Assembly (NCBI GenBank): GCA_902596515.1
Contig: CACJUF010000002.1
Coordinates: 20,100-84,099, forward strand
Reading direction: 5' to 3'
Length of the DNA stretch: 64,000 nt
Source: an uncultured Pelagibacteraceae bacterium
GTDB lineage: Bacteria > Pseudomonadota > Alphaproteobacteria > Pelagibacterales > Pelagibacteraceae
The translations under genes were made by a program, and so were the position numbers. The notes under the pieces were generated by a model that was given only the letters and a program-made list of their open reading frames with translations, had not been told where the DNA came from and made no database searches. Position 1 is the stretch's first letter. Each line of letters starts with the position of its first letter. This document shows positions 2,262-49,916 of this stretch, piece after piece.

Positions 2262-2306
2262 TTCGTGTTTATCACAACAATACACTGTGTGATGCCATTA
2301 AAAAAA

Positions 2307-9285: not shown

Positions 9286-9330
9286 TCTGTAAGAGATAGT
9301 GCTATATATGATTAAAACAATTATATTTCA

Positions 9331-10455
9331 ATGGAAAAAATACTTTTTAGAAAACTAATTTTAGACATATCTCTTAGGGCTTTGATTATCACATTTACCA
9401 TAGGTTTAATCGTTTGGATTATTCAGGCAGCAAACTATCTGGATTTTGTGATTGATGATGGTCATAATTTCACAATCTATTTTTATTACAATTTATTTAA
9501 TTTTCCAAAAATAATTCATAGAATTCTACCTTTTGTGTTTGGCATTTCAATTTTTTTTGAATTAATCAAATATGAAAAAAATAATGAATTACTTATATTT
9601 TGGACTAATGGTATTACCAAAAAAAAATTTATTTCTAATTTAGTTAATTTTTCTATAATTGTCATGCTTCTACAAATTTTACTAGGAAGCGTGATATCTC
9701 CATCAAGTCAATTAAAGGCTAGAGAATTTTTAAAAAATTCAAATATGGATTTTCTACCCAATTTGATTAAGCAAGGAAAATTCATAGACACTGTTTCTGG
9801 ATTAACAATATTTATAAATGAAAAAACAGATAAAAATTCTTTCAAAAACATCTATATTCAAGAAGGAAATATATTGGATTTAACATCTGATAATAATCAA
9901 ATAATCTATGCTAAAGAAGGTTTTTTAGATAATACAGATAATAAAATTTTTAAATTATTAAAAGGTAAAATAATTAGTACTAATAATAATAAGTTAATAA
10001 GTTTTGAATTTGATAAAATAGATTATGATCTATCAAAGTTTGAGTCTAGAACTATTAAGATTGCAAAAATGCAAGAATTGCCTACAAGAAAAATTATAGA
10101 ATGCTCAATTAGTCTGTTGAGAGATATAAGTTATAGGGAAAAAATGTTTCTTTGTGATCCTGGTAGTCTTAAAAATATTAATCAAGAAATTTATAAAAGA
10201 TTTATAAAACCAATGTACTTTCCACTTTTAACATTAGTATGTTGTTTTTTGTTAACCTTTTCAAAAATTGAAAATAATTTTTCTTTTAAATTAATAAAAG
10301 TTTTTTTATGTATTTTCTCAATTTTGGTCCTATCAGAAATTTTAATGAGATATATAGAAAGTTCACAATCATTATTTATACTAGTTATTATTCTTCCAGT
10401 AATAATTTTTTATTTAATTTATAATTTTTTAATTTCAAAAGTTAGTTATGGTTAA
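9331..10455 (+). CDS. lptF: LPS export permease LptF
   Basis: YjgP/YjgQ-type topology (NELLIFWTNG, six TM segments); first gene of the lptFG-lptD-surA-pdxA-rsmA cluster. Confidence 0.8.
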   Translation: MEKILFRKLILDISLRALIITFTIGLIVWIIQAANYLDFVIDDGHNFTIYFYYNLFNFPKIIHRILPFVFGISIFFELIKYEKNNELLIFWTNGITKKKFISNLVNFSIIVMLLQILLGSVISPSSQLKAREFLKNSNMDFLPNLIKQGKFIDTVSGLTIFINEKTDKNSFKNIYIQEGNILDLTSDNNQIIYAKEGFLDNTDNKIFKLLKGKIISTNNNKLISFEFDKIDYDLSKFESRTIKIAKMQELPTRKIIECSISLLRDISYREKMFLCDPGSLKNINQEIYKRFIKPMYFPLLTLVCCFLLTFSKIENNFSFKLIKVFLCIFSILVLSEILMRYIESSQSLFILVIILPVIIFYLIYNFLISKVSYG

Positions 10456-11527
10456 AACATTAGATAGATACTTTATTAGTTTATTTTTTAAAAAATTAAT
10501 GATGCTCAGTATTATTTTTTTTTCATTATCATTTACTTTAACAATTTTTGAGGAAATTACATTTTTAAGTGAAACAACATCATCTTTTTATTTACCATTC
10601 ATGTTGGCAATTTTTGATGCGCCTACCACTCTACTTGAAATCTTTCCTTTTATAATTTTAATTACTGCTCAACTTTTTTTTATTGATTTAATAAAAAAAA
10701 AAGAAAATGAACTTATCAAAATAAATAATTTAAATAATCTTTATTTGATAAAAATTTTAGCATCATGCTCCTTTTTTTTTGGTATCATTATAATTACAGT
10801 TTATTATCCAATTTCCTCTAAATTAAAATTTATCTATTCTGATATTAAAAATGTCTATTCAGATGATGGTAAATACCTTAAGCATTTAAATGATAATGGT
10901 ATTTGGATCAAAGATGAATTTAGTAATGAAATTTATATAATAAATGGTGCTACGAAAAAAGATCCCTTTCTTGAAGATGTTTTTATATCAAAATTTAATG
11001 CTGATTTTGACTTAATAGAAAATATTTTTGCCAAAAATATCGATATCACCAATAATAAATGGTTAATAAAAAATCCAATTATATTTAAGAGTAACCGTCA
11101 AATAAGCTTAGATAAAACCATTGTATTAAATACTCACTTTAATATTGATAAAATTAACAGTGCCTTTCAGAATCTTAATTCATTTAATCTATTTGAATTA
11201 ATTGATATAAAAAATGAAAATAAGTTATTGGGTTATTCTTCACAAGATATTGATTTACATTTTTTAAAAATAATTTCACTTCCAATTTATTTTACTATAT
11301 TGGTGATAATTTCGTCATTAATTATGTTAAATATTAAAAGAAATAAACCGTATATATTTCATGTTTTATTGGGTATCTCATTATCTGTGATTATTTATTA
11401 TATAAATAATATCTTTAATATATTTGGACTAACAAATAAAATACCAATCTACTTATCTATATTTTTTCCTATGATTTTTTTAGGTATAATCTCAACAATT
11501 GGTTTAATAAGAATTAATGAGAAATAG
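10448..11527 (+). CDS. lptG: LPS export permease LptG
   Basis: Second YjgP/Q paralog (GIWIKD, ENELI); overlaps lptF. Confidence 0.8.
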   Translation: MVKTLDRYFISLFFKKLMMLSIIFFSLSFTLTIFEEITFLSETTSSFYLPFMLAIFDAPTTLLEIFPFIILITAQLFFIDLIKKKENELIKINNLNNLYLIKILASCSFFFGIIIITVYYPISSKLKFIYSDIKNVYSDDGKYLKHLNDNGIWIKDEFSNEIYIINGATKKDPFLEDVFISKFNADFDLIENIFAKNIDITNNKWLIKNPIIFKSNRQISLDKTIVLNTHFNIDKINSAFQNLNSFNLFELIDIKNENKLLGYSSQDIDLHFLKIISLPIYFTILVIISSLIMLNIKRNKPYIFHVLLGISLSVIIYYINNIFNIFGLTNKIPIYLSIFFPMIFLGIISTIGLIRINEK

Positions 11528-13877
11528 TTTTTTAGTAATTTTAGTTATATTTTTTCAAGTATTAATCTTAAATAAAACATTTGGAAAAATTATTGAATTT
11601 GATGCCTCAGATATTGAAATTGTCAATAATCAAAACTTAACAATCGCAAATAATGGTACTGCAAAAATTAAAGATGATGGGATTATAATTGAAGGTGTAA
11701 AAATAGAGTACTTTAAAGATAAATCTTTAATTTTAGTAAGGCAGGGTAAAATTAAAAAAATAGATATAAATTTGGAAATAAAATCTGACACTATTAGATA
11801 TAAAATTAAAGATGGAGAAATAAATTTTATAAACAAAGTGAAGATTGACGATAAAAAAAATAATTTAATTATTCTTTCACAAAAAATTAATTATGATTTA
11901 AACGGTCAAAAAATTCTTGGAGAAGGTAATAACAAAATAACAGACAATTTTGAAAATACATATCAAGTAAGTGAATTTGAATATTCAATTAAGGATAGAA
12001 TTATTAAATTAGATAAAACAAAAGTATTTGATCGAGACAAAAATACTTTTGAATTAGAAGTTGCGTATTTAGATTTAGATAAAAAAGAAATTTTAGCAAA
12101 AGATATCAGTCTAAATTTTAAAATTTCAGAAAACTCAGAGAATGAACCAAGATTGAAAGGAAGAAGCTTAACTAGTGATGAAAAAAATACAATAGTTAAA
12201 AAAGGTTCTTTTACATTTTGTAAAAAAAGAGAAAAGTGCCCTCCATGGGAAATGCGTGCAGATGAAATTAAACATGATAAGATAAAAAAGATAATATATT
12301 ACAAAGATGCAAGTCTAAAAATTTATGATAAAAAAATTTTCTACTTCCCAAGATTTTTTCATCCTGATCCAACAGTTAAAAGACAAACAGGATTTTTAAT
12401 TCCAAGATTACAAGAAAATACTACTACGGGATTATCTCTTAAGTTACCTTATTTTATAGCATTAGCAGAAAATAAAGACATAACATTAAGTCCAAGATTT
12501 TTTAATGATGATAAATTCTTATTACAATCTGAATTTAGACAAAAAAATAAAGAGTCTAATCATATAGCAGATCTAAGCCAATTTATTTCAAATGATAAAG
12601 GCTCTAAGGGACATTTATTTTATAATTTTAAAAAGAATTACGAGAGTGAAAATTTTGATGATATAACGCTTGGTTTAAAAGTAGAACAAGTCTCTGATGA
12701 TACATATTTAAAAGCCTACAAAATTGAAAGTCCAATAATAAAAAATACATCAAACATAATAAATTCAATAAATTTGGATTTATATAGTGAAAACCAATCA
12801 ATAAATACTAATTTAAATATTTATGAAGATTTAAGTAAAACAAATAATGATAGGTATGAGTACGTCCCAAATTTTAGTTTTTCAAAAATTATAAATGATA
12901 ATTATTCTTTTAGGTCTAGTGGGTATTATAAAAATTATAATACAAATATAACAGAAAAAGTTTTAATAAATGATTTAGAATTTAAATCAGCCTCAAAATA
13001 TTTTGATAATGGAGTCATAAATAGTAAAAAATTTTTAATAAAAAATGTTAATTCAGAAGGAAAAAATTCAGATAAATTTAAAAATAAAGACACATTTAAC
13101 CTAGCTCCCACGTTTCAAAATAACTATGCATATCCACTCCAAAAACAAACTGACGAATTTAATTATACTCTTACACCGAAATTAACTCTAAATCTAAGTA
13201 CACCTCATACAAAAGATGTGCACAAAAATAATGCTCATATTAATTATAATAATATCTACGATATAAATAGATTGGGTTTGGATGAAATAAATGAGGGAGG
13301 AGTATCTGTAACATATGGTTATGAATATATTAAAAGTGATAGATCAAATTTAAATCAAAAAATAAAATTTGGTTTTGCAAATAATATTAGGTTTGAAAAA
13401 AACAATGATTTACCAGCTAATACTAATTTAGGTGATAAAGTTTCTGACTTTGTAGGATTATTTGAATATAATCCAAATGAAAATATTAAATTAGATTACA
13501 ATTTTTCTTTGAAAAATAATTTAATAGATCAGAATTATGAGCTTTTCGGTTTTGAGTATTATTTAAAAAATATATCCACAAAATTTGAGTACTTGAATGA
13601 AAATAATACTGTTTCAAAAACTTCTTATTTACAAAATGAAACACGGTACGCAATTGATGATAAAAATACTCTAATTTTTGAAACCAGAGAAAATAAAGAA
13701 AAAAACTTTACTGAGTATTACAATCTTATTTATCAATTTCAAAATGATTGTTTAACTGCAGCTATAGAATACAATAAAGAATATTATAGTGATCAAGACT
13801 TAAAACCATCTGAAAATCTCCTCTTTAAATTATCAATTTTACCGTTTGGTGGATTTAATACACCTAATTTAAAATGA
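11517..13877 (+). CDS. lptD: LPS assembly outer-membrane protein LptD (OstA)
   Basis: FTFCKKREKCPPW, FYFPRFFHPDP..KRQTGFL.P, C-terminal YQFQNDCL beta-strands. Confidence 0.9.
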   Translation: MRNSFLVILVIFFQVLILNKTFGKIIEFDASDIEIVNNQNLTIANNGTAKIKDDGIIIEGVKIEYFKDKSLILVRQGKIKKIDINLEIKSDTIRYKIKDGEINFINKVKIDDKKNNLIILSQKINYDLNGQKILGEGNNKITDNFENTYQVSEFEYSIKDRIIKLDKTKVFDRDKNTFELEVAYLDLDKKEILAKDISLNFKISENSENEPRLKGRSLTSDEKNTIVKKGSFTFCKKREKCPPWEMRADEIKHDKIKKIIYYKDASLKIYDKKIFYFPRFFHPDPTVKRQTGFLIPRLQENTTTGLSLKLPYFIALAENKDITLSPRFFNDDKFLLQSEFRQKNKESNHIADLSQFISNDKGSKGHLFYNFKKNYESENFDDITLGLKVEQVSDDTYLKAYKIESPIIKNTSNIINSINLDLYSENQSINTNLNIYEDLSKTNNDRYEYVPNFSFSKIINDNYSFRSSGYYKNYNTNITEKVLINDLEFKSASKYFDNGVINSKKFLIKNVNSEGKNSDKFKNKDTFNLAPTFQNNYAYPLQKQTDEFNYTLTPKLTLNLSTPHTKDVHKNNAHINYNNIYDINRLGLDEINEGGVSVTYGYEYIKSDRSNLNQKIKFGFANNIRFEKNNDLPANTNLGDKVSDFVGLFEYNPNENIKLDYNFSLKNNLIDQNYELFGFEYYLKNISTKFEYLNENNTVSKTSYLQNETRYAIDDKNTLIFETRENKEKNFTEYYNLIYQFQNDCLTAAIEYNKEYYSDQDLKPSENLLFKLSILPFGGFNTPNLK

Positions 13878-14809
13878 TATTAAATAAAAAAACTATTGTT
13901 TTAGTTTTGATCTTTTTTTTATTTAATAATTTTTCTTATTCTAAAATAAATCTTGAAATCATTATGAAAATAAATAATCAAATATTAACCTCTTATGATC
14001 TTGAAAAGGAAAGCAATTACCTCTTAGCTCTCAACCCCAAACTTAAAGAGATTAGTGAAAATGATCTTTTAGATCTTGCGAAAAGATCGATGATAAAAGA
14101 GACAATAAGAAAAAGTGAGGTACTCAAATATAAGGATTTGAATTTAGAGAATGCTCAAATAAATAATGTTTTAAACAAGATAGTGCAAAATTTAAATTTT
14201 TCAGATCAATCTCAATTTGAAAATTATTTAAATGATTTTGATATTTCTATAGATGACATTAAAGAAAAGATTGAAATTGAAAATGAATGGAAAAATTTGA
14301 TTTATGCTAGATATTCTAAAAGTGTCAAAATAAATAAAAATGATTTGATCAGTAAAATTGAAAAAATAAGTAAAGAAGAATTTTCTTTGGAATATAATTT
14401 ATCAGAAATCGTTTATGGTAAAACACAAAATATTTCTTTAGAGGAGCACTCAAAAAAAATTTTGGAAAGTATAAAGATTAATGGTTTTGAAAATACTGCG
14501 AATTTATTTAGTATAACTGACAGTTCTAAATCAGGTGGTAAAATAGGTTGGGTAAAAAAAAATAATTTATCATCCGAGATAAATCATGAGCTAGAAAATC
14601 TAAAAGTTGACTCATATAGTAGTCCAATCAAAATCGGTAATAATTATTTAATTTTGAAAATAAATGATATTAAAAAAGTGGCTATTGAATTTGATAAACA
14701 AAAAGAACTTGATAGAATGATATTAAGTGAGACGTCAAAACAATTGGATAAGTTTTCAAATATTTTTTATAATAAAATTAAATTAAATAGTACAATAAGT
14801 GAATTTTAA
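13874..14809 (+). CDS. surA: SurA-like periplasmic chaperone/PPIase
   Basis: Signal peptide; FENTANLFS...SKSGGKIGWV rotamase remnant; synteny. Confidence 0.8.
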   Translation: MILNKKTIVLVLIFFLFNNFSYSKINLEIIMKINNQILTSYDLEKESNYLLALNPKLKEISENDLLDLAKRSMIKETIRKSEVLKYKDLNLENAQINNVLNKIVQNLNFSDQSQFENYLNDFDISIDDIKEKIEIENEWKNLIYARYSKSVKINKNDLISKIEKISKEEFSLEYNLSEIVYGKTQNISLEEHSKKILESIKINGFENTANLFSITDSSKSGGKIGWVKKNNLSSEINHELENLKVDSYSSPIKIGNNYLILKINDIKKVAIEFDKQKELDRMILSETSKQLDKFSNIFYNKIKLNSTISEF

Positions 14810-15731
14810 ACCAATTCTAATAATTCCTGGAGAAAAAAAAAGTATTTTTTTCGAAATTTTTTTTAAATCTCTAAAATCCAAATCTATTTCAAGTCCTTTG
14901 ATTTTAATTTGTAACAAAAAAGATTTAAATAAAGAGGTTAAGAAGCATAAGTTTAAGTATGTTGTTGAACAAATAGAATTAAACAAAATTAATGCTAAAA
15001 AATTTCATAAAAATAAGATTTATGTAATTCACGTAAAATATCAAAATTCTTATATCTATGTGCATAATTGCTTTAAAGTTGCCTTCAGATTAATAAAAGA
15101 AGGGTTAACTCATAAAATGATTAACGGACCAATTAATAAAACTAAAACTTTAAATAAAAAATATCTTGGTGTAACTGAGTTTGTTGCTAAAAATTTTAAA
15201 GTAAATAAATTTGCAATGCTAATTTACAATAAGAAGTTATCAGTTTGTCCTTTAACAACACATCTTCCAATTAAATTAGTAGCAAAAGAAATCTCAAAAA
15301 AGAAGATTAGAGAAAAGATAATTATCATTAATAACTTCTTTAAGGAATATTTGGGATTTAAGCCAAGAATAGCTGTAACGGGGTTAAATCCTCATTGTGA
15401 AAGTGTTTTAAAATTTAACGAGGATACTAAAATCATAGATCCAGTGATTAGATCTTTTAAAAATAAAATTAATGTTAAAGGTCCTTTTCCAGCAGATACA
15501 ATATTTCTAAAAAATAATAGAAAAAAGTTTGATATTATTATTGGAATGTATCATGACCAAGTTTTAACACCAATAAAAACTATATTTGAATACGACGCAA
15601 TCAATATTACTATGGGATTACCTTTTTTAAGAGTGACACCTGATCATGGTCCAAATGAAAAAATGATTGGAAAAAATATTTCTAATCCAATCAGTTTAAT
15701 AAGATCACTAGAATTTTTAGATAAAAAATGA
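14799..15731 (+). CDS. pdxA: 4-hydroxythreonine-4-phosphate dehydrogenase-like protein (divergent)
   Basis: TTHLP, GLNPH, GPFPAD, MYHDQ, GLPFLRVTPDHG. Confidence 0.85.
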   Translation: MNFKPILIIPGEKKSIFFEIFFKSLKSKSISSPLILICNKKDLNKEVKKHKFKYVVEQIELNKINAKKFHKNKIYVIHVKYQNSYIYVHNCFKVAFRLIKEGLTHKMINGPINKTKTLNKKYLGVTEFVAKNFKVNKFAMLIYNKKLSVCPLTTHLPIKLVAKEISKKKIREKIIIINNFFKEYLGFKPRIAVTGLNPHCESVLKFNEDTKIIDPVIRSFKNKINVKGPFPADTIFLKNNRKKFDIIIGMYHDQVLTPIKTIFEYDAINITMGLPFLRVTPDHGPNEKMIGKNISNPISLIRSLEFLDKK

Positions 15732-16513
15732 TTAAGGCCAAAAAAAGCCTTGGACAAAACTTTCTAGTTGATAAAAGAATAATCAATAAGATAGTCAATA
15801 CTATAGAATTAAAAAATAAAAATATCTTAGAAATAGGTCCAGGTACAGGTAATTTGACTGAGGGAATTTTAAAAAAAAATCCAAAAAAAATTTTAGTAGT
15901 TGAAAAAGATGACAATTTAACAAACTTACTGAGAGAAAAGTTTAAAGATAAGGTTGAGGTCATCAATCAAGATATCTTAATGATAGATGAAAACTTATTA
16001 AGTGATCAAACTTTAACAGTCTTTGGTAACTTACCTTATAACATTTCTACTGAAATCTTATGTAAGTGGATATTAAACATTAAAGAAAAAATTTGGTTTG
16101 ATTGCCTAATACTTATGTTTCAGAAAGAAGTGGCAGACAGAATTATATCTGATTTTAATACCAAAAATTATGGAAGATTAACAATTTTAGCTAATTGGAG
16201 ATTACATGTAAAAAAAATTTGTGATTTAAGTCCTTTAAGTTTTCAACCCAAACCAAAAATAGATAGCACTGTGTTGTTTTTTAAACCCAAAAAAGAATTT
16301 TTTACATTTAAAAATGCAAAAAATTTGGAGAAAATTACAAGAATATTTTTTATGCATAGACGTAAAATGATTAAAAAACCTTATAAACAACTGTTCAATA
16401 ATAATACTTATATTGCCTCAAAAATTGGAATTGATCTAAATTCCAGACCTCAAAATTTAGATTTTGAGAAGTATTTTCAATTAACTAAAGAGTACGAGGA
16501 TTTAAGAAGTTAG
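15728..16513 (+). CDS. rsmA: 16S rRNA adenine dimethyltransferase
   Basis: [34 protein letters not shown]. Confidence 0.97.
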
Positions 16514-42660: not shown

Positions 42661-43236
42661 ATGAAGTATTTTTTCATAATTTTCTTTTTTTTAATTAATA
42701 TAAATTTTTCATATTCTGCTCAAAAAGATAAAGCATATTTCGCTGGGGGATGTTTTTGGTGTGTTGAGGAGTCATTTGAAAAATTAAAAGGTGTGGAAGA
42801 GGTAATTTCTGGTTATTCTGGAGGTATTACTGAAAACCCTACTTACAAAGAAGTTACATATGGAAATACTGGTCACTTTGAAGTTGTAGAAATAATCTAT
42901 GATAAAAAAGTTATTTCATTTGAGCAATTACTAGAAAATTTTTGGGTTAATATTGATCCATTTGATGCTTACGGTCAATTTTGTGACAAAGGATATAGTT
43001 ATAGATCAGTTGCATTTTATCAAAATGAAGAAGAAAAAAAATTAATAGAAAGAGACATAAAAGATTTACAAAATAAATTTAACAAAAAAGTTGTTACATA
43101 CATTAGGAATTTTGAAAAATTTTATAAGGCAGAGGAATACCATCAAGATTTTTATAAGATTAAATTAGAAAGATATCTTAGATATAAAAAAGCGTGTGGA
43201 AGAGAGGAATTGTTAAAAAGAATCTGGAGTCAATAA
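42661..43236 (+). CDS. msrA: Peptide methionine sulfoxide reductase A, exported
   Basis: AYFAGGCFWC, SGYSGG, GH.EVVEI.YD, AEEYHQDFY; N-terminal signal peptide. Confidence 0.95.
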   Translation: MKYFFIIFFFLININFSYSAQKDKAYFAGGCFWCVEESFEKLKGVEEVISGYSGGITENPTYKEVTYGNTGHFEVVEIIYDKKVISFEQLLENFWVNIDPFDAYGQFCDKGYSYRSVAFYQNEEEKKLIERDIKDLQNKFNKKVVTYIRNFEKFYKAEEYHQDFYKIKLERYLRYKKACGREELLKRIWSQ

Positions 43237-44696
43237 ACTTTATGAAGAATAATATGAATTGGAATTTCGATAACTCTTATTCAAGACTGTCTGATGCATT
43301 TAAAGAACATATTGAACCTATTGCTGTAAAAAATCCTGAATTAGTTTTAATGAATGAGGATTTAGTTACAGAATTAAACTTAGACTTTTCCAAAATTAAT
43401 AAAAATGAATTAGCAGCTTTATTCACTGGAAATATTCTTCCGAAAGGAAGTAATTCTATTGCTCAAGCTTATGCTGGTCACCAATTTGGACATTTCACAA
43501 TGTTAGGAGATGGAAGAGCAGTTTTAATAGGTGAGCATTTAACGAAAAATAATAAGAGATACGATATTCAATTTAAAGGATCAGGTAAAACTGCATTTTC
43601 AAGAAATGGTGACGGCAGAGCTGCACTGGGTCCAATGTTGAGAGAATATATAATAAGTGAAGCAATGCATCACCTAAATATTCCATCAACAAGAAGTTTA
43701 GCGGTAGCTAAAACAGGTGAGGAAATAATGCGAGAGACTCCATTGCAAGGTGCTATCTTAACGAGAGTGGCATCAAGTCATATTAGAGTTGGAACTTTTC
43801 AATATGTTGCAGCACGTAATAAAAAAGATGAGTTAGAAATTTTACTAAATTATGTAATTAAAAGACATTATCCAGAACTAATAAATTCAAAAAATAAAGC
43901 TTTAGACCTTTTGAATGTACTTATAGATAAACAAATTGATCTTGTAGTTAATTGGATGCGCGTTGGTTTTATTCATGGTGTTATGAATACTGATAATATG
44001 ACAATTTCAGGTGAGACAATCGACTATGGTCCGTGTGCATTTATGGATACCTATGACCCAAAAACTGTTTTTAGCTCGATTGATAAGGTGGGAAGGTATG
44101 CTTATTGTAATCAACCAGCTATTACAAAATGGAATCTTTCAAGATTTGCTGAATGTTTAATACCTTTAATTGATGAAAATGAAGATAAGGCGATTAAAAG
44201 TGCAACAGAGTTGATTGAAACTTTCGGCAAAAAATATGAGGAAAAATGGTTGAAGATGATGAGAAAAAAACTTGGATTATTAGGTGAAGATAACAAAGAT
44301 AAATTTTTGATTGTTGATTTGCTCACTTGGATGCATCAAAACAAAGTAGATTATACAAATACTTTTTGTCATCTAATGAATATTAAAATTGAGAAAGATG
44401 GAAATTATAAAGATAGTAATTTTCAACAGTGGAAAAAGAGGTGGCAAGAAAGATTAGAAATTAACGAAAACTCTCCTGAAAAAAATATGAAATTAATGAG
44501 AAGTGTAAATCCTTTAGTTATCCCAAGAAATCACAAAATTGAAGAAGCTCTTGAAGCTGCAGAAAAAGATAACTTCAAATCAGTCAATCAACTGAATGAA
44601 ATTTTAAAGAAACCATATTCTCAACAAAAAAATATTCTTAAATATCAAATTTCATCAAATTTAAATGAAAATTATCAAACTTTTTGTGGGACTTAA
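43194..44696 (+). CDS. selO: SelO/YdiU protein adenylyltransferase; likelier start 43242 or 43254
   Basis: AYAGHQFG....LGDGRA, QFKGSG.T.FSR.GDGRA, HGVMNTDN, IDYGP, terminal TFCGT. Confidence 0.95.
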   Translation: MWKRGIVKKNLESINFMKNNMNWNFDNSYSRLSDAFKEHIEPIAVKNPELVLMNEDLVTELNLDFSKINKNELAALFTGNILPKGSNSIAQAYAGHQFGHFTMLGDGRAVLIGEHLTKNNKRYDIQFKGSGKTAFSRNGDGRAALGPMLREYIISEAMHHLNIPSTRSLAVAKTGEEIMRETPLQGAILTRVASSHIRVGTFQYVAARNKKDELEILLNYVIKRHYPELINSKNKALDLLNVLIDKQIDLVVNWMRVGFIHGVMNTDNMTISGETIDYGPCAFMDTYDPKTVFSSIDKVGRYAYCNQPAITKWNLSRFAECLIPLIDENEDKAIKSATELIETFGKKYEEKWLKMMRKKLGLLGEDNKDKFLIVDLLTWMHQNKVDYTNTFCHLMNIKIEKDGNYKDSNFQQWKKRWQERLEINENSPEKNMKLMRSVNPLVIPRNHKIEEALEAAEKDNFKSVNQLNEILKKPYSQQKNILKYQISSNLNENYQTFCGT

Positions 44697-45376
44697 ATCA
44701 TAAATAAAATCGTTTTAACAAAAGGATTAAGTATACCTTTCTTAAAGTTCAATTTTTTAATTTGTGAAAAATTTAACCATATAAAACCAGGATTTTTAAT
44801 CTTTAAACTTTTTTTATAATCTACATGAATAATTACATTTTTATTAGGCTTTTTCCAAAATCTAGCTCCTTCTTCATAATGAGTTGTCTCTCCAATAATA
44901 TTCTTTTTATTTTTCAAAACAAACTCGGATAAAGGTGTTTTTTTTCCTCCATGAGCTCTATTAATATTTGATTGAGTTGCTGAAAATGATGGACATAATT
45001 TAATGTTATTGTCTCCAGGTTCCTTTCTGGCAAACAACAAAAACTCAACTATACCTTTATTTGTTCTAGTCAAAATTGCTAAAATACCTCCATGTTTTTG
45101 GTTTAATATTGGTTGTGACCAACTTGAGGTTTCTCTCTCAACTGCATTATAAATATTTACTCCCTCTACTGAAAAAAATTGTCCAGATTTATGAAATAAA
45201 TTTCCATTTTTTTTTAAATACCAATCTTTCAATTTATTTACAGAAATTTTTCTTACTTTCATCTTATTAACTTTATTTCTTTTCTTTAACCACTTAAGCA
45301 CAGATTGAATATTTTCATTTTCTACTTTTTGACTTTTTAAAATTTCATTTCTTAACTTTAGTAACTTATTTTTCAT
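44693..45376 (-). CDS. NDP-hexose 2,3-dehydratase family, single-domain form
   Basis: GNLFHKSGQFFSVEG, WSQPI, FARKEPG, PSFSATQSN...HGG, EEGARFWKKPNKN. Confidence 0.85.
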   Translation of the reverse strand: MKNKLLKLRNEILKSQKVENENIQSVLKWLKKRNKVNKMKVRKISVNKLKDWYLKKNGNLFHKSGQFFSVEGVNIYNAVERETSSWSQPILNQKHGGILAILTRTNKGIVEFLLFARKEPGDNNIKLCPSFSATQSNINRAHGGKKTPLSEFVLKNKKNIIGETTHYEEGARFWKKPNKNVIIHVDYKKSLKIKNPGFIWLNFSQIKKLNFKKGILNPFVKTILFMI

Positions 45377-46313
45377 CTGACTCTTTAAAATTTGTATATT
45401 CTCTTACTACAAATTGAGGTTTTTTATTTAATTTAATGTACGATCTGCCAATATATTCTCCGACAAGCCCAATTAAAATAAGTTGAACTCCTGAAAAAAA
45501 AACAATTAGTGTTGATAAAGACGCCCATCCGGCAGTTATAGCAGGATTTTTAATTTTAAGTATTACAATTACAATTACAATTATAAAACTCACAAAAGTC
45601 ATAAAAAAACCAATTAATGTTGCTATTCTTAATGGAACAATAGAAAAGTTTGTTAAAACTCTTAACCAAAGTGAAATAAGTTTAAATAAATTATAATTTG
45701 ATTTTCCTGTTTTTCTTTCTAAATGTTCAATATCAATACTAGTTACATTTTTTGTAATATCAAATATTAAACCATCTATATAAACAAATGGTCCATCATA
45801 TTTAATTATTTCCTTCAAAACTTTTTTGGTAATGCATTTATATGAAGATAGATAAATTGACTTAGGTTTATCAATTAAAATATTTGATATCTTCTTATTA
45901 ATCCAACTTCCAAAAATTTTAAATTTACTATAAGCATTGTTCTTATAATTTGTGTAGCAAACATCATATCCTTCCCTTATTTTAGATAGAATTTTTGGGA
46001 TTTCTTTTGGTGGATGCTGATAATCATCATCTATAAGAATTGTATAATCCCCATCAGCCAACTTCAAACCAGCCATTATTGCATTATGTTGACCATAGTT
46101 TCTCATCAAATTTATACCAATTACTATCTCTTTATATTCAGACGACAATTTAGATATTTTTTTCCAGCTTTCGTCAGTGCTACAATCATTTACCAGAATT
46201 AGCTGTATTTTATTTACATCAGAAATTTCTTTGGTCGTTGATAAAATATCATTTGTCAAATTTTCAATTATTGAAGAACTATTATAAACCGGTACAACAA
46301 TACTTATATTCAT
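45366..46313 (-). CDS. GT2 polyprenyl-phosphate glycosyltransferase (GtrB/ArnC-like)
   Basis: SIVVPVYN, VNDCSTD, RNYGQHNAI.AG, IDDDYQHPP, two C-terminal TM helices, GEYIGR.Y. Confidence 0.9.
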   Translation of the reverse strand: MNISIVVPVYNSSSIIENLTNDILSTTKEISDVNKIQLILVNDCSTDESWKKISKLSSEYKEIVIGINLMRNYGQHNAIMAGLKLADGDYTILIDDDYQHPPKEIPKILSKIREGYDVCYTNYKNNAYSKFKIFGSWINKKISNILIDKPKSIYLSSYKCITKKVLKEIIKYDGPFVYIDGLIFDITKNVTSIDIEHLERKTGKSNYNLFKLISLWLRVLTNFSIVPLRIATLIGFFMTFVSFIIVIVIVILKIKNPAITAGWASLSTLIVFFSGVQLILIGLVGEYIGRSYIKLNKKPQFVVREYTNFKESDEK

Positions 46314-46315
46314 AT

Positions 46316-47236
46316 TTATTTTATTTTTTTGTATAAATTATCTCTAATTTTTGCATCTTCAATCAATAGATTATAAAATTTCAAAAAATTGTTATTAGTC
46401 ATAGATTTTATGACTTCGATAAAATAATTTAATATACAATCATCCTTTTTGATGAATAATTTTTTATATTCATTCTTTTCTTTAATAATAATTTCAATAT
46501 TTTTTTGTGGAGAAAGTGCAAATGCTTGATGAGGTAGGAATACTACTTTTCTTTTTGAATAAAATATTATCTGACTTAAATATTCACGATTATGAGAAAA
46601 ATTACCAAAATATCTTATTTTTTGATCTGAGGCAAAAATATAAAAACTATGAATATTTTTACTTCTTGGAAATTTTTTATAATCAATATCAATTTTAAGA
46701 TTTTTTGAATTAGTATAAAGTCTAATTATTGCAGCAGCGTATGGCGACATATCCATAAAACAATCTGATTTTGTCATTTTAATTTTTTTTAAAGATTTAG
46801 TTTGAGGAATATTAAAATTGGATTGTAGTAATTCTATATTTTTTTTTCCTCCTAAAATCTTTAATATTTTTTCAAAAATTGAATGATAATTAAATAAAGT
46901 TGACTCTGATAATAATAAATTTTTTGATTTGGCTATTTTTACTAATTCCGATGTTTTTTTTAAAGAATCTGTAATTGGTTTATCTACTATAACGTTATAA
47001 CCTTTTTTAAGAAATATTTTTGCATATTTATAGTGAAGATGATTTGTCAAAGATATATAAACTAAATCTGGTTTAAAATTTAAACCTTCTAAATAATCTT
47101 TATAATAAATCATTTTATTTTTTTTTGATTTTGAACAGACTCGATAATCAATTTTTTTTATTTTTTTTATTGATTTGATTAATCTTTTTTCTACAAATTT
47201 TGAATATCCAATAATTAGCAACTTAATTTTTTTCAT
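46316..47236 (-). CDS. Gfo/Idh/MocA oxidoreductase, NDP-hexose 3-ketoreductase-like
   Basis: DLVYISL.N.LH, VIVDKP, ESTLFNYH, FNIP, DMSPY; adjacent to the 2,3-dehydratase. Confidence 0.7.
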   Translation of the reverse strand: MKKIKLLIIGYSKFVEKRLIKSIKKIKKIDYRVCSKSKKNKMIYYKDYLEGLNFKPDLVYISLTNHLHYKYAKIFLKKGYNVIVDKPITDSLKKTSELVKIAKSKNLLLSESTLFNYHSIFEKILKILGGKKNIELLQSNFNIPQTKSLKKIKMTKSDCFMDMSPYAAAIIRLYTNSKNLKIDIDYKKFPRSKNIHSFYIFASDQKIRYFGNFSHNREYLSQIIFYSKRKVVFLPHQAFALSPQKNIEIIIKEKNEYKKLFIKKDDCILNYFIEVIKSMTNNNFLKFYNLLIEDAKIRDNLYKKIK

Positions 47237-47278
47237 TTAATTATTTTAATTTAGTTTACATTAATATATCTTGTAAAA

Positions 47279-47962
47279 ATGAGTTCTAAAAGAGATCAAA
47301 AAAAAATTAATTTTGACAATTATGCTGATAAATACAAAGAGTATATTGCAAAAAGCATTGGTAATATAGAGGATAATTTAAATTATTATCATATTAAAAA
47401 AAGCGAAATATTAAAAAAAGAATTAGGTTATCATCCCAAAAAAATTCTTGATTTAGGTTGTGGTGTTGGGACAATGTTAGGGCTACTGATAGAAAATTTT
47501 CAAGAAAGTTCTTTTTATGCTCATGATGAATCAAAAAAGAGCATGGATTACATCAAGAAAAATTTTCCAAAAGTAAATTGTTTAGATAATTTAGAAACAA
47601 ATGAAAAATTTGATTTAATTTTTCTGTCTGTGGTAGTGCACCATGTCAAATCTATCGATAGAGATGCTTTATTTAAAAATATTTATAATTTATTGAGCCC
47701 TAATGGAGTAATGTTCATTTTTGAACATAACCCATACAACCCTATTACTTTAAGAATGGTTGCAAATTGCGAATTTGATGCAGATGCCGAGTTAATAAAA
47801 AAAAATGACTTAATCAATTTATGTAAAAAAAATAACTTTAAAATAGTGAAATCAGGATATATTCATTTTTTTCCATCTAAACTTGGTTTTCTTTTCAAGC
47901 TCGAAAGTTATTTAAAGTGGTTTTTTTTAGGTGCTCAATATTTTTGTTTATTTAAAAAATAA
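47279..47962 (+). CDS. Class I SAM-dependent methyltransferase
   Basis: ILDLGCGVG, FDLIF..VVVHH, FEHNPYNP.T, CEFDADA, GAQY. Confidence 0.9.
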   Translation: MSSKRDQKKINFDNYADKYKEYIAKSIGNIEDNLNYYHIKKSEILKKELGYHPKKILDLGCGVGTMLGLLIENFQESSFYAHDESKKSMDYIKKNFPKVNCLDNLETNEKFDLIFLSVVVHHVKSIDRDALFKNIYNLLSPNGVMFIFEHNPYNPITLRMVANCEFDADAELIKKNDLINLCKKNNFKIVKSGYIHFFPSKLGFLFKLESYLKWFFLGAQYFCLFKK

Positions 47963-49132
47963 TCAAGCAATTAAATAATCAAAAATTCTATCCAATATTC
48001 TTAAATAAGGCAAAGACCCTAAGTCATCAGTTAAGATTACTTTTGGATGCCACACAAATAAATATAAGAAAAAATAAATATAAATTAAGTATAGTTTGCT
48101 TTTATCTTTTAACATTTGATTAATGAAAATGAATAATCTTGTTTGTTTAATTTGAATTTTTTTAATTTCTAATAAGAAAATTAAAGTCAGAACTGAGAAA
48201 ATATAGAGTATATTAAGATATCTTCCCCAATCAAAAGAAATGTATAAAAAAATAAATGTAGGAATTACACAAACAATATATCCCAAAAAAATCTCAATTT
48301 TATTTTTTTGATCATAAAAAATGAATAAAAATGGAAAAAAACAAATTATGAATATAAATAAATACCTAATAAGATAGACAATTTTCAATCTCGATAAACC
48401 GTAATTCATTTGATCTTTAAATGAATAATCAAGAAAATTCATTGCTCCAAAACAGGGTTCATTTATTGCTTTACACATTTCCTCTATCATTTGATCATTT
48501 GATTTAGTTGTAATTAATATGATTGATGAAATTAAATACGGAATTAATGAAATACAAAATATTATAACTTCTTTTTTATTGATCTTAATTTTACTAATAA
48601 AGAAAGTGTATATAAAAAAAAATATATAAAAAACATTCCCATCCCATACTAAATTTAGTATAGGTAGACCAAGTATTAGTATTGAGTAGGTTAATTTTTG
48701 GTTTCCTTTTAAAATTGAGCTCAAATAAAGTAAATATAAAAAAAATAATAAAACTTCTTTTCTTGCTATGGCTTCAGTTTCAGTTACTGAAAAAAGGAAT
48801 CCCAATGGTGAAAAAATTATTAGGATTATAATAGGCGAAAACTCTACTTTTTTAAAAAAATTAATAATGTAAAAATAATATGTAAAAAGTAAAATAATTT
48901 CAAAAATAAAAACTAAGTTTCTTATTTCAAAATTTAAAAAAGAATTAATTTGAACTAAAATCTCTCCTATTAATCCTCTTCTAGTAAAACCTCCTTGGTA
49001 ATTAATTAACCATTCGGAAGTTGTCCAATCAGTTGGGTATTGAAATTTATGATAAAGAAAAAATATTGAGACAACTAAACAAGTAAAAATATAATAATTA
49101 AAAAATTTATTATTTATTTTTGTTAATGCCAT
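47963..49132 (-). CDS. Polytopic membrane protein, possible GT-C-type glycosyltransferase
   Basis: About 10 TM; conserved-looking loop EWLINYQGGFTRRGLIG, RKE and FDWGRY; no soluble catalytic domain. Confidence 0.55.
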   Translation of the reverse strand: MALTKINNKFFNYYIFTCLVVSIFFLYHKFQYPTDWTTSEWLINYQGGFTRRGLIGEILVQINSFLNFEIRNLVFIFEIILLFTYYFYIINFFKKVEFSPIIILIIFSPLGFLFSVTETEAIARKEVLLFFLYLLYLSSILKGNQKLTYSILILGLPILNLVWDGNVFYIFFFIYTFFISKIKINKKEVIIFCISLIPYLISSIILITTKSNDQMIEEMCKAINEPCFGAMNFLDYSFKDQMNYGLSRLKIVYLIRYLFIFIICFFPFLFIFYDQKNKIEIFLGYIVCVIPTFIFLYISFDWGRYLNILYIFSVLTLIFLLEIKKIQIKQTRLFIFINQMLKDKSKLYLIYIYFFLYLFVWHPKVILTDDLGSLPYLRILDRIFDYLIA

Positions 49133-49203
49133 TAATGATCTAGATTATCCTATAACTGATAATTTTCAAAAGAGAATAAATCTTTATGCGATTAATCTTT
49201 TTT

Positions 49204-49905
49204 TTAATTAGAAAATTTTTTCCAATTTTCGACTGGAGGGACTAAATGTTCAAGTGTTGATGAATCTTTTGCTAAAAATACTATATCTGCTGAAATTGAT
49301 ATCCTTTCAGAATTAGACTTTCCTTGTTCTGTGCCATGAATTGTTTTTGAGGGAAATATCAACAGATCATCTTCTTTAGTATCAAATACAACTTTACTTG
49401 AATTTAAAATATCTCGCTTTTTAAAAATATTTTCTTTTGCTAATGATCTTGAGTCGAATAATTGAGGAATAAATTCATTATGCTTAGAAGTATCAAAAAA
49501 CATGATCTTAGCATCGTCTTTTTGTTTCTTTAAATAAAATGCAATAGAAAGATGCGACTGATCATGTGAATGATTATCAATATGTTCAGTTTTTTTTGAA
49601 ATTGTTGCCCACGATCTCTGAAAATAAAGATCAAGCTTTGTATGGTTCACTGATAAACTTTCTAAATATTCTAAAATACAATTGTTAATTTGAATAAACA
49701 AATTTTTAAATTTTGGATTATTGTGCAAATATTCAAATCCTTGCGTATCTCCTGTCCAAGCTTTCGTCGCAGATTTATAATCTAAATTTTTACTTTTTTT
49801 TTCCATTAATCGGACTTCCTCAATCATTTCATTTTTTTCATTTTCTGAAAGTGAAAGTGTCGACTTATAAACTGTTAGTGGAAAAAAATTAAAAATTTTT
49901 TGCAT
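49204..49905 (-). CDS. Putative 2OG-Fe(II) oxygenase (TIGR02466-like)
   Basis: FPLTVY N-terminus, RSWAT, HSHDQSHLS..FYL, IFPS...HG, RISIS. Confidence 0.75.
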   Translation of the reverse strand: MQKIFNFFPLTVYKSTLSLSENEKNEMIEEVRLMEKKSKNLDYKSATKAWTGDTQGFEYLHNNPKFKNLFIQINNCILEYLESLSVNHTKLDLYFQRSWATISKKTEHIDNHSHDQSHLSIAFYLKKQKDDAKIMFFDTSKHNEFIPQLFDSRSLAKENIFKKRDILNSSKVVFDTKEDDLLIFPSKTIHGTEQGKSNSERISISADIVFLAKDSSTLEHLVPPVENWKKFSN

Positions 49906-49916
49906 TTAAAAGTAAA

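What the first reader, a model, noticed from the sequence alone, without database searches (positions are those of the whole stretch)
44693..49132. Candidate new system: 2,6-dideoxysugar synthesis feeding a Gtr-like surface glycosylation module
Seen: a five-gene block between selO and a 2OG oxygenase, visibly AT-rich especially over 46.3-49.1 kb: ketoreductase-like, GtrB/ArnC-like GT2 and 2,3-dehydratase in one tight operon, plus a SAM methyltransferase and a ~10-TM protein. Established: 2,3-dehydratase plus 3-ketoreductase make NDP-4-keto-2,6-dideoxyhexoses in actinomycete antibiotic pathways; GtrB/ArnC load sugars on undecaprenyl-P for a GT-C enzyme. Inference: a possibly methylated 2,6-dideoxy sugar is added to LPS or protein, potentially masking phage receptors or affecting grazing. 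Not seen: a GtrA flippase, RmlA/RmlB, a 4-reductase, or mobility genes.
Basis: partly seen in the sequence, partly recalled or inferred. Interest (0 to 1): 0.78.

Follow-up and report, generated by a model that had tools for sequence, protein, structure and literature searches.

The report
SAR11 deoxysugar surface-glycosylation island
A small, strain-variable gene cassette in the ocean bacterium Pelagibacter appears to make an unusual 2,6-dideoxy sugar with a half-size dehydratase, load it on a lipid carrier and attach it to something outside the inner membrane; this is a new twist on a well-known type of surface-decoration system, with no biochemical evidence yet.

Summary
The five genes exist as described, in a Pelagibacteraceae (SAR11) genome. 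Corrections: the "2,3-dehydratase" is a half-size, single-domain protein, and the membrane protein has 11 predicted helices.

- **Dehydratase (A):** it matches EvaA's catalytic N-terminal domain and keeps both essential glutamates.
- **Oxidoreductase (C):** its family profile hits KijD10 sugar 3-ketoreductase best and keeps the catalytic Lys and Tyr.
- **GT2 (B):** a full-length ArnC/GtrB-type polyprenyl-phosphate glycosyltransferase.
- **Membrane protein (E):** it belongs to a large uncharacterised family. All its conserved polar residues face the periplasm, and its only, weak, fold matches are GT-C enzymes.

In 88 related loci the reductase accompanies the dehydratase in 51 of 52 assessable cases and the GT2 in 19 of 23. 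The methyltransferase is optional. The membrane partner is swapped among at least four families with no detected similarity. rmlB and rmlA abut the module in some relatives.

Metagenome recruitment shows a deep coverage trough and empty-site junctions, so this is a flexible island. All five genes are under purifying selection.

Verdict: a new variant of the known three-component periplasmic glycosylation scheme, fed by a minimal dTDP-dideoxyhexose branch. The conserved core is the three-gene operon, not the five genes. The sugar's final form, the flippase, the acceptor and the ecological role remain untested.

The parts
46316..47236 (-). Gene C: KijD10-like NDP-sugar 3-ketoreductase (GFO/IDH/MocA), first gene of the C-B-A operon
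   Evidence: PF01408 E 3e-12. A profile of 12 family members hits KijD10 'sugar 3-ketoreductase' 3rbv best (E 1.3e-19, nearly full length). Invariant K86 (DKP) and Y166 (DMSPY) align with KijD10 K102 and Y186, the residues changed in the mutant entries 3rcb/3rc9/3rc7. It lies next to the dehydratase in 51 of 52 assessable loci. dN/dS 0.11-0.16.
45366..46313 (-). Gene B: ArnC/GtrB-type GT2 polyprenyl-phosphate glycosyltransferase, with two C-terminal TM helices
   Evidence: PF00535 E 2e-26. Full-length alignments to ArnC (NF007986, residues 2-305; PDB 9bhc 3e-45), PgfS and GtrB sll0501 (5ekp 2e-36). At 188 bits it is far below the ArnC equivalog cut-off of 529, so it is not ArnC itself. Present in 19 of 23 loci with both flanks. 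Overlaps A by 11 nt.
44693..45376 (-). Gene A: half-size (single Nudix-like domain) NDP-hexose 2,3-dehydratase homologue
   Evidence: PF03559 E 1.6e-46. Matches the EvaA N-terminal domain at 102 bits and the C-terminal domain at 50 bits. EvaA E139 and E190 (essential, pocket A; PMC8987622) align with E119 and E168, which are invariant in 16 homologues. AF2 pLDDT 86.7; Foldseek top hit EvaA, E 6e-14, TM 0.75. All top 120 homologues are 189-234 aa.
47279..47962 (+). Gene D: soluble class I SAM-dependent methyltransferase, an accessory part, transcribed divergently from C-B-A
   Evidence: Methyltransf_12/23/25/11 E about 1e-12. PDB matches are generic. Homologues accompany the module in all three architectures (window type; L048/L051/L053; L065/L066/L068), but the gene is absent from L030, L033, L037 and L041. 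dN/dS 0.06-0.08.
47963..49132 (-). Gene E: 11-TM inner-membrane protein of a large uncharacterised family (faint PF27463 'Rv1490'); proposed GT-C-like periplasmic transferase
   Evidence: No Pfam, NCBIfam or PDB sequence hit. The family has 3382 representatives at E<=1e-3. AF2 pLDDT 82, pTM 0.88. Foldseek finds nothing significant, but the top hits are GT-C folds: STT3 prob 0.89, ALG9 0.80, PIGU, ALG3. Topology is N-in/C-out, with all invariant polar residues on the periplasmic face: E40, R51, R52, E120, R124, K125, E126, C220, E225, C227, D301, R304. Paralogues in three other contexts lie near polyprenyl-P-type GT2 genes, directly adjacent or within one intervening gene.
47237..47278 (.). 42-nt divergent intergenic spacer between C-B-A and D (presumed promoter region)
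   Evidence: Read directly from the coordinates. No promoter analysis was done.
44694..49915 (.). Limits of the flexible island as seen in metagenomes. One empty-site junction skips all five genes plus the 2OG gene; a second junction, 44372->49200, skips only the five genes
   Evidence: read laying. The 44694->49915 joint appears in three runs (depth 24, 145, 94; shorter side 20 nt). The 44372->49200 joint appears in one run (depth 95; side 48 nt). Depth over 44.6-49.0 kb is about 10-300 times lower than in the flanks.

Best explanation
The block is a flexible genomic island of a Pelagibacteraceae (SAR11) genome. It encodes a three-component-type periplasmic glycosylation module with its own deoxysugar branch.

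Proposed order of events:
1. dTDP-4-keto-6-deoxy-D-glucose, made by RmlA/RmlB encoded elsewhere in this genome, is dehydrated across C2-C3 by A. A is a minimal single-domain 2,3-dehydratase that presumably works as a homodimer.
2. C, a KijD10-like enzyme, reduces the unstable 3,4-diketo product at C3, giving an NDP-4-keto-2,6-dideoxyhexose.
3. The sugar is possibly processed further: 4-reduction by an enzyme outside the island, and methylation by D in the strains that carry D.
4. B, an ArnC/GtrB-type GT2, transfers the sugar to undecaprenyl phosphate at the cytoplasmic face.
5. The lipid-linked sugar is flipped by an unidentified flippase.
6. E, a GT-C-like 11-TM enzyme with a periplasmic active face, transfers it to a periplasmic acceptor, most plausibly LPS core or O-chain.

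Basis of each step:
- Shown by sequence and comparative genomics: the family assignments, the catalytic residues, the operon coupling, the co-occurrence, the island behaviour and purifying selection.
- Inferred: the substrate, the product, the oligomeric state of A, the donor used by B, the transferase activity of E and the acceptor.
- Speculative: that the biological role is strain-level variation of the cell surface, for example of phage receptors.
For: **Dehydratase A**
- PF03559, E 1.6e-46.
- It aligns best with EvaA's catalytic N-terminal domain.
- The equivalents of EvaA E139 and E190 are invariant.
- Its model superposes on EvaA (E 6e-14, TM 0.75). The next-best matches are the Nudix NDP-sugar enzymes NUDT5, NUDT14 and YffH, which I recall to be homodimers.

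**Ketoreductase C**
- KijD10 sugar 3-ketoreductase is the best PDB hit for the family profile (1.3e-19).
- The catalytic Lys and Tyr are invariant.

**Coupling of the genes**
- C lies beside A in 51 of 52 loci with at least 2 kb upstream of A.
- B is present in 19 of 23 loci with both flanks.
- Gene order varies (C-B-A or C-A-B) but the genes stay contiguous.
- B and A overlap by 11 nt.

**Substrate**
- rmlB (TIGR01181, 373 bits, above the 365 cut-off) and rmlA (E 3e-99) directly abut the module in L056 and L057. An rmlA-like gene does so in L062.
- Pair-only loci sit among FdtA, DegT and RmlD-type dTDP-sugar genes.

**GT2 B**
- Full-length ArnC/GtrB/PgfS-type alignment that includes the C-terminal TM region.

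**Membrane partner**
- Most sibling loci with enough flank carry a large polytopic membrane protein next to the trio: E family, DUF6798, DUF6044 or DUF6311. L001, with 8 kb on each side, shows none beside its trio; its only nearby membrane gene is an ABC-2 permease. This pattern mirrors the conserved GtrB plus variable GtrC logic.
- E's invariant polar residues are all periplasmic, and its only fold matches are GT-C enzymes.
- E paralogues elsewhere neighbour polyprenyl-P-type GT2 genes.

**Function and population behaviour**
- dN/dS is 0.06-0.16 for all five genes.
- There is a coverage trough and there are empty-site junctions in four marine metagenomes.
- The organism has LPS export genes, lptF and lptG, in the same window.
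Against: - No 4-ketoreductase, epimerase or flippase is encoded in the island or consistently in sibling loci. The final sugar is therefore undefined, and an Und-P-linked 4-keto sugar would be unusual.
- No RmlA/RmlB lies in the 64-kb window, and I could not inspect the rest of the genome.
- No known ArnC/GtrB-type enzyme uses a dTDP-sugar (my own knowledge, not tested).
- E has no statistically significant similarity to any GT-C. The best Foldseek E-value is 0.39 with TM 0.43, and the profile search of PDB sequences found nothing.
- A single-domain 2,3-dehydratase has, to my knowledge, never been assayed.
- The C-A pair also occurs without B in O-antigen-type clusters. The sugar therefore need not go through Und-P.
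- Expression evidence is thin: a few metatranscriptome contigs, and DNA carry-over is not excluded.
Confidence: 0.55

Rival explanations
1. Two independent functions share one island. C and A make a dTDP-deoxysugar for ordinary cytoplasmic (Leloir) glycosyltransferases of an O-antigen or capsule pathway encoded elsewhere. B and E form a separate Gtr-like module that uses a common sugar such as UDP-glucose.
For: The C-A pair occurs without B inside conventional polysaccharide clusters that carry Wzy_C, an ABC transporter, GT1/GT4 and FkbM-type methyltransferase genes. L032 has only C-A between DAO and SelO. All characterised ArnC/GtrB-type enzymes use UDP- or GDP-sugars (my own knowledge).
Against: B is contiguous with C and A in 19 of 23 fully assessable loci, across three gene orders and at least two chromosomal sites. 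It overlaps A translationally. In the small-island contexts no other glycosyltransferase is present to use the deoxysugar.
Confidence: 0.17
2. E, and the other polytopic partners, are not glycosyltransferases. They are the flippase, or another membrane function such as a polymerase or ligase, and the final transferase is encoded elsewhere.
For: No flippase is found in the island. E has no significant match to any GT-C. The E and DUF6798 families share no detectable homology.
Against: Conservation in E is concentrated in periplasmic loops rather than in the membrane core. These include an acidic residue in the first loop, several Arg/Lys residues and a Cys pair. The only fold matches are GT-C enzymes. 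A partner that varies beside a constant donor synthase fits acceptor specificity, as with GtrC, better than a flippase does.
Confidence: 0.12
3. A and C do not carry out canonical 2-deoxygenation. For example, C acts as an NDP-sugar 3-dehydrogenase, and the lone Nudix-like domain catalyses a different elimination or hydrolysis, giving another modified sugar.
For: A lacks the second domain present in every characterised 2,3-dehydratase. The window has no rmlAB. Weak NCBIfam hits of C include UDP-GlcNAc 3-dehydrogenase.
Against: Both EvaA catalytic glutamates and both KijD10 catalytic residues are invariant. KijD10 outranks all other GFO-family structures for the family profile. rmlBA are adjacent in relatives.
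Confidence: 0.1

Closest known systems
Actinomycete dTDP-2,6-dideoxyhexose pathways: 2,3-dehydratase (EvaA, TylX3, Gra-orf27, OleV, SpnO) plus 3-ketoreductase (KijD10-type GFO family)
   Same: Same two enzyme families, encoded side by side. The catalytic Glu pair (EvaA E139/E190) and the Lys/Tyr pair (KijD10 K102/Y186) are conserved. There is a genomic link to rmlA and rmlB in relatives.
   Different: The dehydratase is a single 227-aa domain instead of two fused domains of about 450-470 aa. It corresponds to EvaA's active N-terminal half and lacks the vestigial pocket-B domain. The host is a streamlined marine alphaproteobacterium, not an antibiotic producer. The product appears to go to a lipid carrier rather than to an aglycone glycosyltransferase. 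No 4-ketoreductase is in the cluster. Identity to the actinomycete enzymes is about 33-35%.
GtrABC O-antigen glucosylation (Shigella/Salmonella serotype conversion)
   Same: A GtrB-type GT2 is conserved, with a variable polytopic membrane partner beside it. The module is a small strain-variable cassette that alters the cell surface.
   Different: No GtrA is present. The cassette is not phage-borne: no hits in 50,697 phage genomes or in IMG/VR. The donor is predicted to be a dTDP-derived dideoxyhexose rather than UDP-glucose. The partner E belongs to an uncharacterised family, not to a known GtrC family.
ArnC/ArnT lipid A L-Ara4N modification (and the Francisella FlmF/FlmK and Bordetella LgmABC relatives)
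   Same: B's best structural and NCBIfam matches are ArnC, over the full length. As in Arn, dedicated cytoplasmic sugar-modifying enzymes feed the Und-P-sugar synthase.
   Different: B scores 188 bits against an ArnC equivalog cut-off of 529. There are no ArnA, ArnB, ArnD or ArnE/F homologues. E has no detectable sequence similarity to ArnT or to any other solved structure.
Und-P-pentofuranose three-component systems (Citrobacter youngae O1/O2; GT136; PMC11127046)
   Same: A recently recognised variant of the same scheme, in which an unusual sugar reaches periplasmic GT-C enzymes on a polyprenyl phosphate. It shows that flippase families and GT-C families vary widely between systems.
   Different: There the donor is built from PRPP and is epimerised while lipid-linked. 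Here the unusual sugar is predicted to be made at the NDP level by deoxygenation.

Membership tests
NDP-hexose 2,3-dehydratase (PF03559; EvaA type) | PF03559 Nudix-like dehydratase domain and fold | tested here: met
   E 1.6e-46, covering profile positions 3-200 of 203. The AF2 model matches EvaA with E 6e-14 and TM 0.75.
NDP-hexose 2,3-dehydratase (PF03559; EvaA type) | Two tandem Nudix-like domains in one chain of about 450-470 aa | tested here: not met
   A is 227 aa with one domain. All 120 best homologues are 189-234 aa. EvaA is 471 aa and both of its domains match A.
NDP-hexose 2,3-dehydratase (PF03559; EvaA type) | Catalytic glutamates of pocket A (EvaA E139, E190) | tested here: met
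   They align with E119 and E168, which are invariant in 16 homologues. Their essentiality is taken from PMC8987622.
NDP-hexose 2,3-dehydratase (PF03559; EvaA type) | Activity on dTDP-4-keto-6-deoxy-D-glucose | not testable with these tools
   Only indirect evidence: rmlB and rmlA are adjacent in L056/L057, and an rmlA-like gene in L062.
KijD10-type NDP-sugar 3-ketoreductase (GFO/IDH/MocA) | GFO-family fold with catalytic Lys (KijD10 K102) and Tyr (Y186), closest to KijD10 among solved structures | tested here: met
   The profile hits 3rbv at 1.3e-19 over model positions 7-281. K86 and Y166 are invariant.
KijD10-type NDP-sugar 3-ketoreductase (GFO/IDH/MocA) | Encoded next to a 2,3-dehydratase | tested here: met
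   51 of 52 loci with at least 2 kb upstream of A.
Polyprenyl-phosphate GT2 (GtrB/ArnC/DPMS type) | GT-A domain with a DxD motif, juxtamembrane helices and two C-terminal TM helices; full-length alignment to ArnC and GtrB | tested here: met
   Residues 2-306 align to ArnC 9bhc (3e-45) and to GtrB 5ekp (2e-36). The DDD motif is visible in the translation.
ArnC (Und-P-L-Ara4FN transferase) equivalog | Score above the NCBIfam equivalog cut-off | tested here: not met
   188 bits against a cut-off of 529.
Three-component periplasmic glycosylation system (Gtr type) | Polyprenyl-P-sugar synthase | tested here: met
   Gene B.
Three-component periplasmic glycosylation system (Gtr type) | Dedicated flippase (GtrA, SMR or MATE type) in the locus | tested here: not met
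   No additional ORF fits in the block. The gaps are 2, 42 and 71 nt, and the alternative-frame ORFs are spurious. No flippase is consistently present in sibling loci either.
Three-component periplasmic glycosylation system (Gtr type) | GT-C fold transferase that uses the lipid-linked donor | tested here: inconclusive
   E has 11 TM helices. Its first periplasmic loop carries two short helices and an invariant Glu and Arg-Arg, and all conserved polar residues are periplasmic. Foldseek's top hits are STT3, ALG9, PIGU and ALG3, but with E >= 0.39 and TM <= 0.43. There are no sequence hits.

The most novel reading that the evidence does not exclude
SAR11 populations carry a family of swappable cassettes with three unusual features:
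- A minimal homodimeric 2,3-dehydratase, a form that has not been characterised, and its ketoreductase make a dTDP-2,6-dideoxyhexose.
- An ArnC-like enzyme loads this sugar on undecaprenyl phosphate. This would be the first dTDP-derived deoxysugar shown to enter a three-component periplasmic glycosylation route.
- Membrane transferases of uncharacterised families install it. These are the PF27463 'Rv1490'-like family (over 3000 sequence clusters), DUF6798, DUF6044 and DUF6311, which would thereby gain a function.

The result would be strain-specific surface glycotypes in the ocean's most abundant bacterium.
Probability: 0.4. Interest if true: 0.7.

Novelty: new variant of a known kind. Interest (0 to 1): 0.55.

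Why it matters
- **Enzymology.** If correct, 2-deoxygenation of sugars does not need the fused two-domain enzyme known from antibiotic producers.
- **Pathway scope.** It would extend three-component periplasmic glycosylation to dTDP-derived dideoxyhexoses.
- **Function for unknown families.** It gives a first testable function to several large families of unknown membrane proteins.
- **Ecology.** The cassette is present in only a small minority of co-occurring SAR11 cells and sits at a defined site with empty alleles. That makes it a tractable marker and a candidate determinant of strain-level surface diversity, which is thought to govern phage susceptibility in this globally dominant group.

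None of this is demonstrated biochemically.

Tried and rejected
- **E against solved structures.** A profile of the E family found no PDB sequence hit even at E<=10.
- **E against Pfam.** Pfam scans of E and of homologues that carry a PF27463 label found nothing locally.
- **E against the DUF6798 partners.** hhalign gave probability 0.5%, so the two families share no detectable homology.
- **Meaningless alignment.** The DUF6311/DUF6044 alignment was not sensible and was not used.
- **Phage carriage, as for Gtr.** There were no tblastn hits for A or E in 50,697 phage genomes and none for A in IMG/VR. Rejected.
- **Mobility signals.** No flanking direct repeats or mobility genes were found, only AT-rich chance repeats; I ran no tRNA scan.
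- **Plasmid search with A.** It returned only actinomycete two-domain enzymes.
- **Methyltransferase substrate.** PDB matches for D are generic.
- **Literature.** Searches found nothing on PF03559 single-domain forms, DUF6311, DUF6044, DUF6798, PF27463 or Rv1490 function. The EvaA primary paper could not be retrieved, so I used the JBC review instead.
- **AT-richness as evidence of foreign origin.** Down-weighted, because the core lpt-surA region is more AT-rich still.
- **A decaying island.** Rejected for this window, since dN/dS is 0.06-0.16 for all five genes. Truncated copies do exist in L034, L061 and L069.

Full report
**1. What is in the sequence**

The window is from a Pelagibacteraceae (SAR11) genome. 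Near-identical loci occur in four Pelagibacteraceae single-cell or MAG assemblies, and window GC is 0.281.

- C, 46316-47236 (-): GFO_IDH_MocA.
- B, 45366-46313 (-): GT2.
- A, 44693-45376 (-): PF03559.
- D, 47279-47962 (+): class I SAM methyltransferase.
- E, 47963-49132 (-): membrane protein with no family hit.

C, B and A form a tight operon, with a 2-nt gap between C and B and an 11-nt overlap between B and A. D is divergent from C across 42 nt, and E is convergent with D.

The block has GC 0.228, with C at 0.193 and E at 0.213. The core lptF-lptG-(786-aa)-surA-pdxA-ksgA stretch at about 8.7-14.8 kb is lower still, at 0.217. AT-richness alone is therefore weak evidence for an island.

**2. 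The two sugar-nucleotide enzymes**

A is only 227 aa and holds one PF03559 domain. The one solved 2,3-dehydratase, EvaA, is 471 aa with two such domains. A matches the N-terminal domain at 102 bits and the C-terminal domain at 50 bits.

According to the JBC review PMC8987622, EvaA's pocket A is the active site. Its residues E139 and E190 are essential for activity. Pocket B is a dispensable relic of a gene duplication. In the alignment, E139 and E190 correspond to A's E119 (REPGD) and E168 (YEEG). Both are invariant in 16 homologues down to 63% identity.

An AF2 model of A (pLDDT 86.7) matches EvaA first, with E 6e-14 and TM 0.75. After that it matches the Nudix NDP-sugar enzymes NUDT5, NUDT14 and YffH, which I recall to be homodimers. 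All 120 best database homologues are 189-234 aa and come from marine metagenomes. A is thus a "half" dehydratase that retains the catalytic half. That it acts as a homodimer is my inference.

For C, a profile of 12 family members puts KijD10, the sugar 3-ketoreductase of the kijanimicin pathway (3rbv), first among PDB sequences. The E-value is 1.3e-19 over nearly the full length, ahead of all other GFO-family structures. The deposited KijD10 mutants (3rcb and 3rc9 at K102, 3rc7 at Y186) mark its catalytic residues. These align with K86 (DKP) and Y166 (DMSPY), which are invariant in the family.

**3. The lipid-carrier step and the membrane protein**

B aligns over its whole length, including the C-terminal membrane region, with ArnC (9bhc, 3e-45), GtrB (5ekp, 2e-36) and PgfS. 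It scores far below the ArnC equivalog cut-off (188 bits against 529). It is therefore a polyprenyl-phosphate glycosyltransferase of unknown donor specificity.

E has no Pfam, NCBIfam or PDB sequence match. It nevertheless belongs to a very large family, with 3382 50%-identity clusters at E<=1e-3. Some members carry a faint PF27463 "Rv1490" label, and I found no functional literature on that family.

The AF2 model is confident (pLDDT 82, pTM 0.88). From its helices and the positive-inside rule, E has 11 TM helices with the N-terminus in and the C-terminus out. Every invariant polar residue lies on the periplasmic side:
- E40, R51 and R52, in a first loop with two short helices.
- E120, R124, K125 and E126.
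- C220, E225 and C227.
- D301 and R304.

Foldseek finds nothing significant. The only plausible hits are GT-C enzymes: STT3 (prob 0.89, TM 0.43), ALG9 (0.80), PIGU and ALG3. E is therefore GT-C-like in architecture, but its membership of that superfamily is unproven.

Paralogues of E at 29-43% identity sit in three other genomic contexts, directly beside or within one gene of short GT2 genes. Those GT2 genes best match the polyprenyl- or dolichyl-phosphate transferases AglJ, PpgS, PgfS and ArnC. This is independent support for a lipid-linked donor.

**4. Co-occurrence**

I examined 88 loci that encode an A homologue of 58-97% identity.
- C lies beside A in 51 of 52 loci with at least 2 kb upstream of A.
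- B is present in 19 of 23 loci with both flanks.

Four arrangements recur:
1. The window type: DAO-[2OG]-E-[D]-C-B-A-SelO.
2. C-B-A with a divergent protein of about 500 aa and 8-9 TM helices that carries a DUF6798 segment (L044, L046, L051-L057).
3. C-A-B, followed by a methyltransferase plus a 715-aa DUF6311 protein (L065, L066, L068) or by a 579-aa DUF6044 protein alone (L072, L091). In L001 the trio stands with neither.
4. The C-A pair alone, inside conventional polysaccharide clusters with Wzy_C, an ABC transporter, GT1/GT4, FdtA, DegT and FkbM-type methyltransferase genes (L076, L082, L083, L089 and the P0106 contig).

The E and DUF6798 families share no detectable homology.

D is present in all three GT2-containing architectures but is dispensable. 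It is absent from L030, L033, L037 and L041. The 2OG gene occurs only in close relatives.

The conserved core is therefore C-A, usually with B. The membrane partner is swappable, which is the pattern of conserved GtrB and variable GtrC.

In L056 and L057, which are contigs of 128 and 135 kb, rmlB and rmlA directly precede the module. rmlB scores 373 bits against TIGR01181, above the 365 cut-off, and rmlA has E 3e-99. L062 has an rmlA-like gene next to the trio. This supports dTDP-4-keto-6-deoxyglucose as the substrate. The present window has no rmlAB, and I could not see the rest of the genome.

**5. Island behaviour and function**

I laid four marine metagenomes on 41-53 kb at 90% or greater identity. 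Depth falls about 10-300-fold over 44.6-49.0 kb, for example in X9 from about 1,200-3,900 in the flanks to 7-31. The 2OG gene is intermediate.

Contigs in three runs join 44694 directly to 49915, which puts selO against the DAO gene and skips all six genes. One run joins 44372 to 49200, which skips exactly the five genes.

Caveats:
- These are assembler contigs.
- The shorter side of the main junction is only 20 nt.
- Island genes diverge faster than the flanks, so the trough overstates absence.

There are no flanking repeats or mobility genes (I ran no tRNA scan). No copies occur in phage genomes or IMG/VR.

The same site can hold a reduced C-A version (L032). Elsewhere, truncated copies occur (L034, L061, L069).

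All five genes are under purifying selection, with dN/dS 0.06-0.16 against L019 and L023. One metatranscriptome has a few contigs inside A and E, which is weak evidence of expression.

**6. Interpretation**

The best-supported model is a three-component-type periplasmic glycosylation module fed by a minimal dTDP-2,6-dideoxyhexose branch:
1. A dehydrates across C2-C3.
2. C reduces at C3.
3. B loads the sugar on Und-P.
4. An unknown flippase moves it across the membrane.
5. E transfers it to a periplasmic acceptor.

LPS is plausible as the acceptor, because lptFG are in the window.

Steps shown by analysis: the family and catalytic-residue assignments, the genetic coupling, the rmlBA association in relatives, the periplasmic orientation of E's conserved face, the island polymorphism and purifying selection.

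Steps inferred: the substrate and product, the homodimeric state of A, B's donor, E's activity and the acceptor.

Open problems:
- There is no 4-ketoreductase and no flippase in any version of the module.
- There is no precedent known to me for an ArnC-type enzyme using a dTDP-sugar.
- The C-A pair can work without B.

The main rivals are two independent functions sharing one island (0.17), E as a flippase or other non-transferase (0.12), and non-canonical chemistry by A and C (0.10).

**7. Comparison with the known, and novelty**

Three-component systems are well established. Examples are Gtr, Arn, the Klebsiella Gal system, Gram-positive CsbB/YfhO, and the pentofuranose/GT136 systems of PMC11127046. 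New donor sugars, flippase families and GT-C families keep being added.

2,3-dehydratase/3-ketoreductase pairs are textbook in actinomycete antibiotic pathways.

What is new here:
- The combination of the two schemes.
- The single-domain dehydratase.
- The uncharacterised membrane partners.
- The setting, as a low-frequency cassette in SAR11.

I class it as a new variant of a known kind. It is interesting and testable, but it is not a categorically new system.

Noticed in passing
window 49204-49905 (-): The 2OG-Fe(II) oxygenase gene (PF13759; TIGR02466, just under its cut-off) is itself variably present. It is missing from L002, L023, L033, L037, L038 and L041, where E abuts the DAO gene. Its metagenome depth is intermediate. 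One empty-site junction keeps it and another removes it.
   Followed up: partly
window ~8700-16500: This is the most AT-rich stretch of the window (GC about 0.217). It is the core envelope operon lptF-lptG-(786-aa protein with no Pfam hit, possibly LptD)-surA-pdxA-ksgA. It shows that low GC is not an island signature in this genome, and that the organism exports LPS.
   Followed up: partly
L009-L011 (E paralogue at about 6155-7327 in L009) versus L046/L051/L055: A second variable spot lies next to the GGACT-MoCF-SfsA-PeptidaseM24-ADSL-SAICAR genes. In some genomes it holds an E-family paralogue with DegT, an SDR, a short GT2 and AzlCD. In others it holds the DUF6798 protein plus C-B-A. Alternative glycosylation cassettes thus seem to share insertion hot spots.
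   Followed up: partly
L001 6050-6984; L066 266-1945; L091 3783-6054: Different extra enzymes precede the C-A-B trio in different lineages. L001 has a Rieske protein plus a 198-aa unknown. L066 has a B12-binding radical SAM protein. L091 has a short SDR-like protein plus a 493-aa FAD/4Fe-4S-like protein. These may further tailor the sugar, and the SDR is a possible candidate for the missing 4-reductase.
   Followed up: no
L032, L034, L061, L069: Reduced or decaying versions exist. L032 has only C-A between DAO and SelO. L034 and L061 have N- or C-terminally shortened C genes. L069 has a shortened A with no C.
   Followed up: partly
L046 6891-8060, L051 7693-8865, L055 10068-11252 (-): A conserved protein of about 390 aa with no Pfam hit and an N-terminal TM segment lies downstream of the type (ii) module (directly after it in L046 and L051; about 2.4 kb away, past a carbamoyltransferase, in L055) and next to the GGACT gene. 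Its function is unknown.
   Followed up: no
window 43194-43236: The longest selO ORF starts at a GTG that overlaps the 3' end of msrA by 43 nt. The real start is probably the downstream ATG (MKNNMNWNF...), which fits the Pfam match beginning at residue 21.
   Followed up: no
window 44922-45179, 48391-48578, 48734-48910: Contigs from one marine metatranscriptome (X25) map inside genes A and E at 94% identity or more (2, 4 and 10 mismatches over 258, 188 and 177 nt). This hints at expression in situ, but DNA carry-over cannot be excluded.
   Followed up: partly
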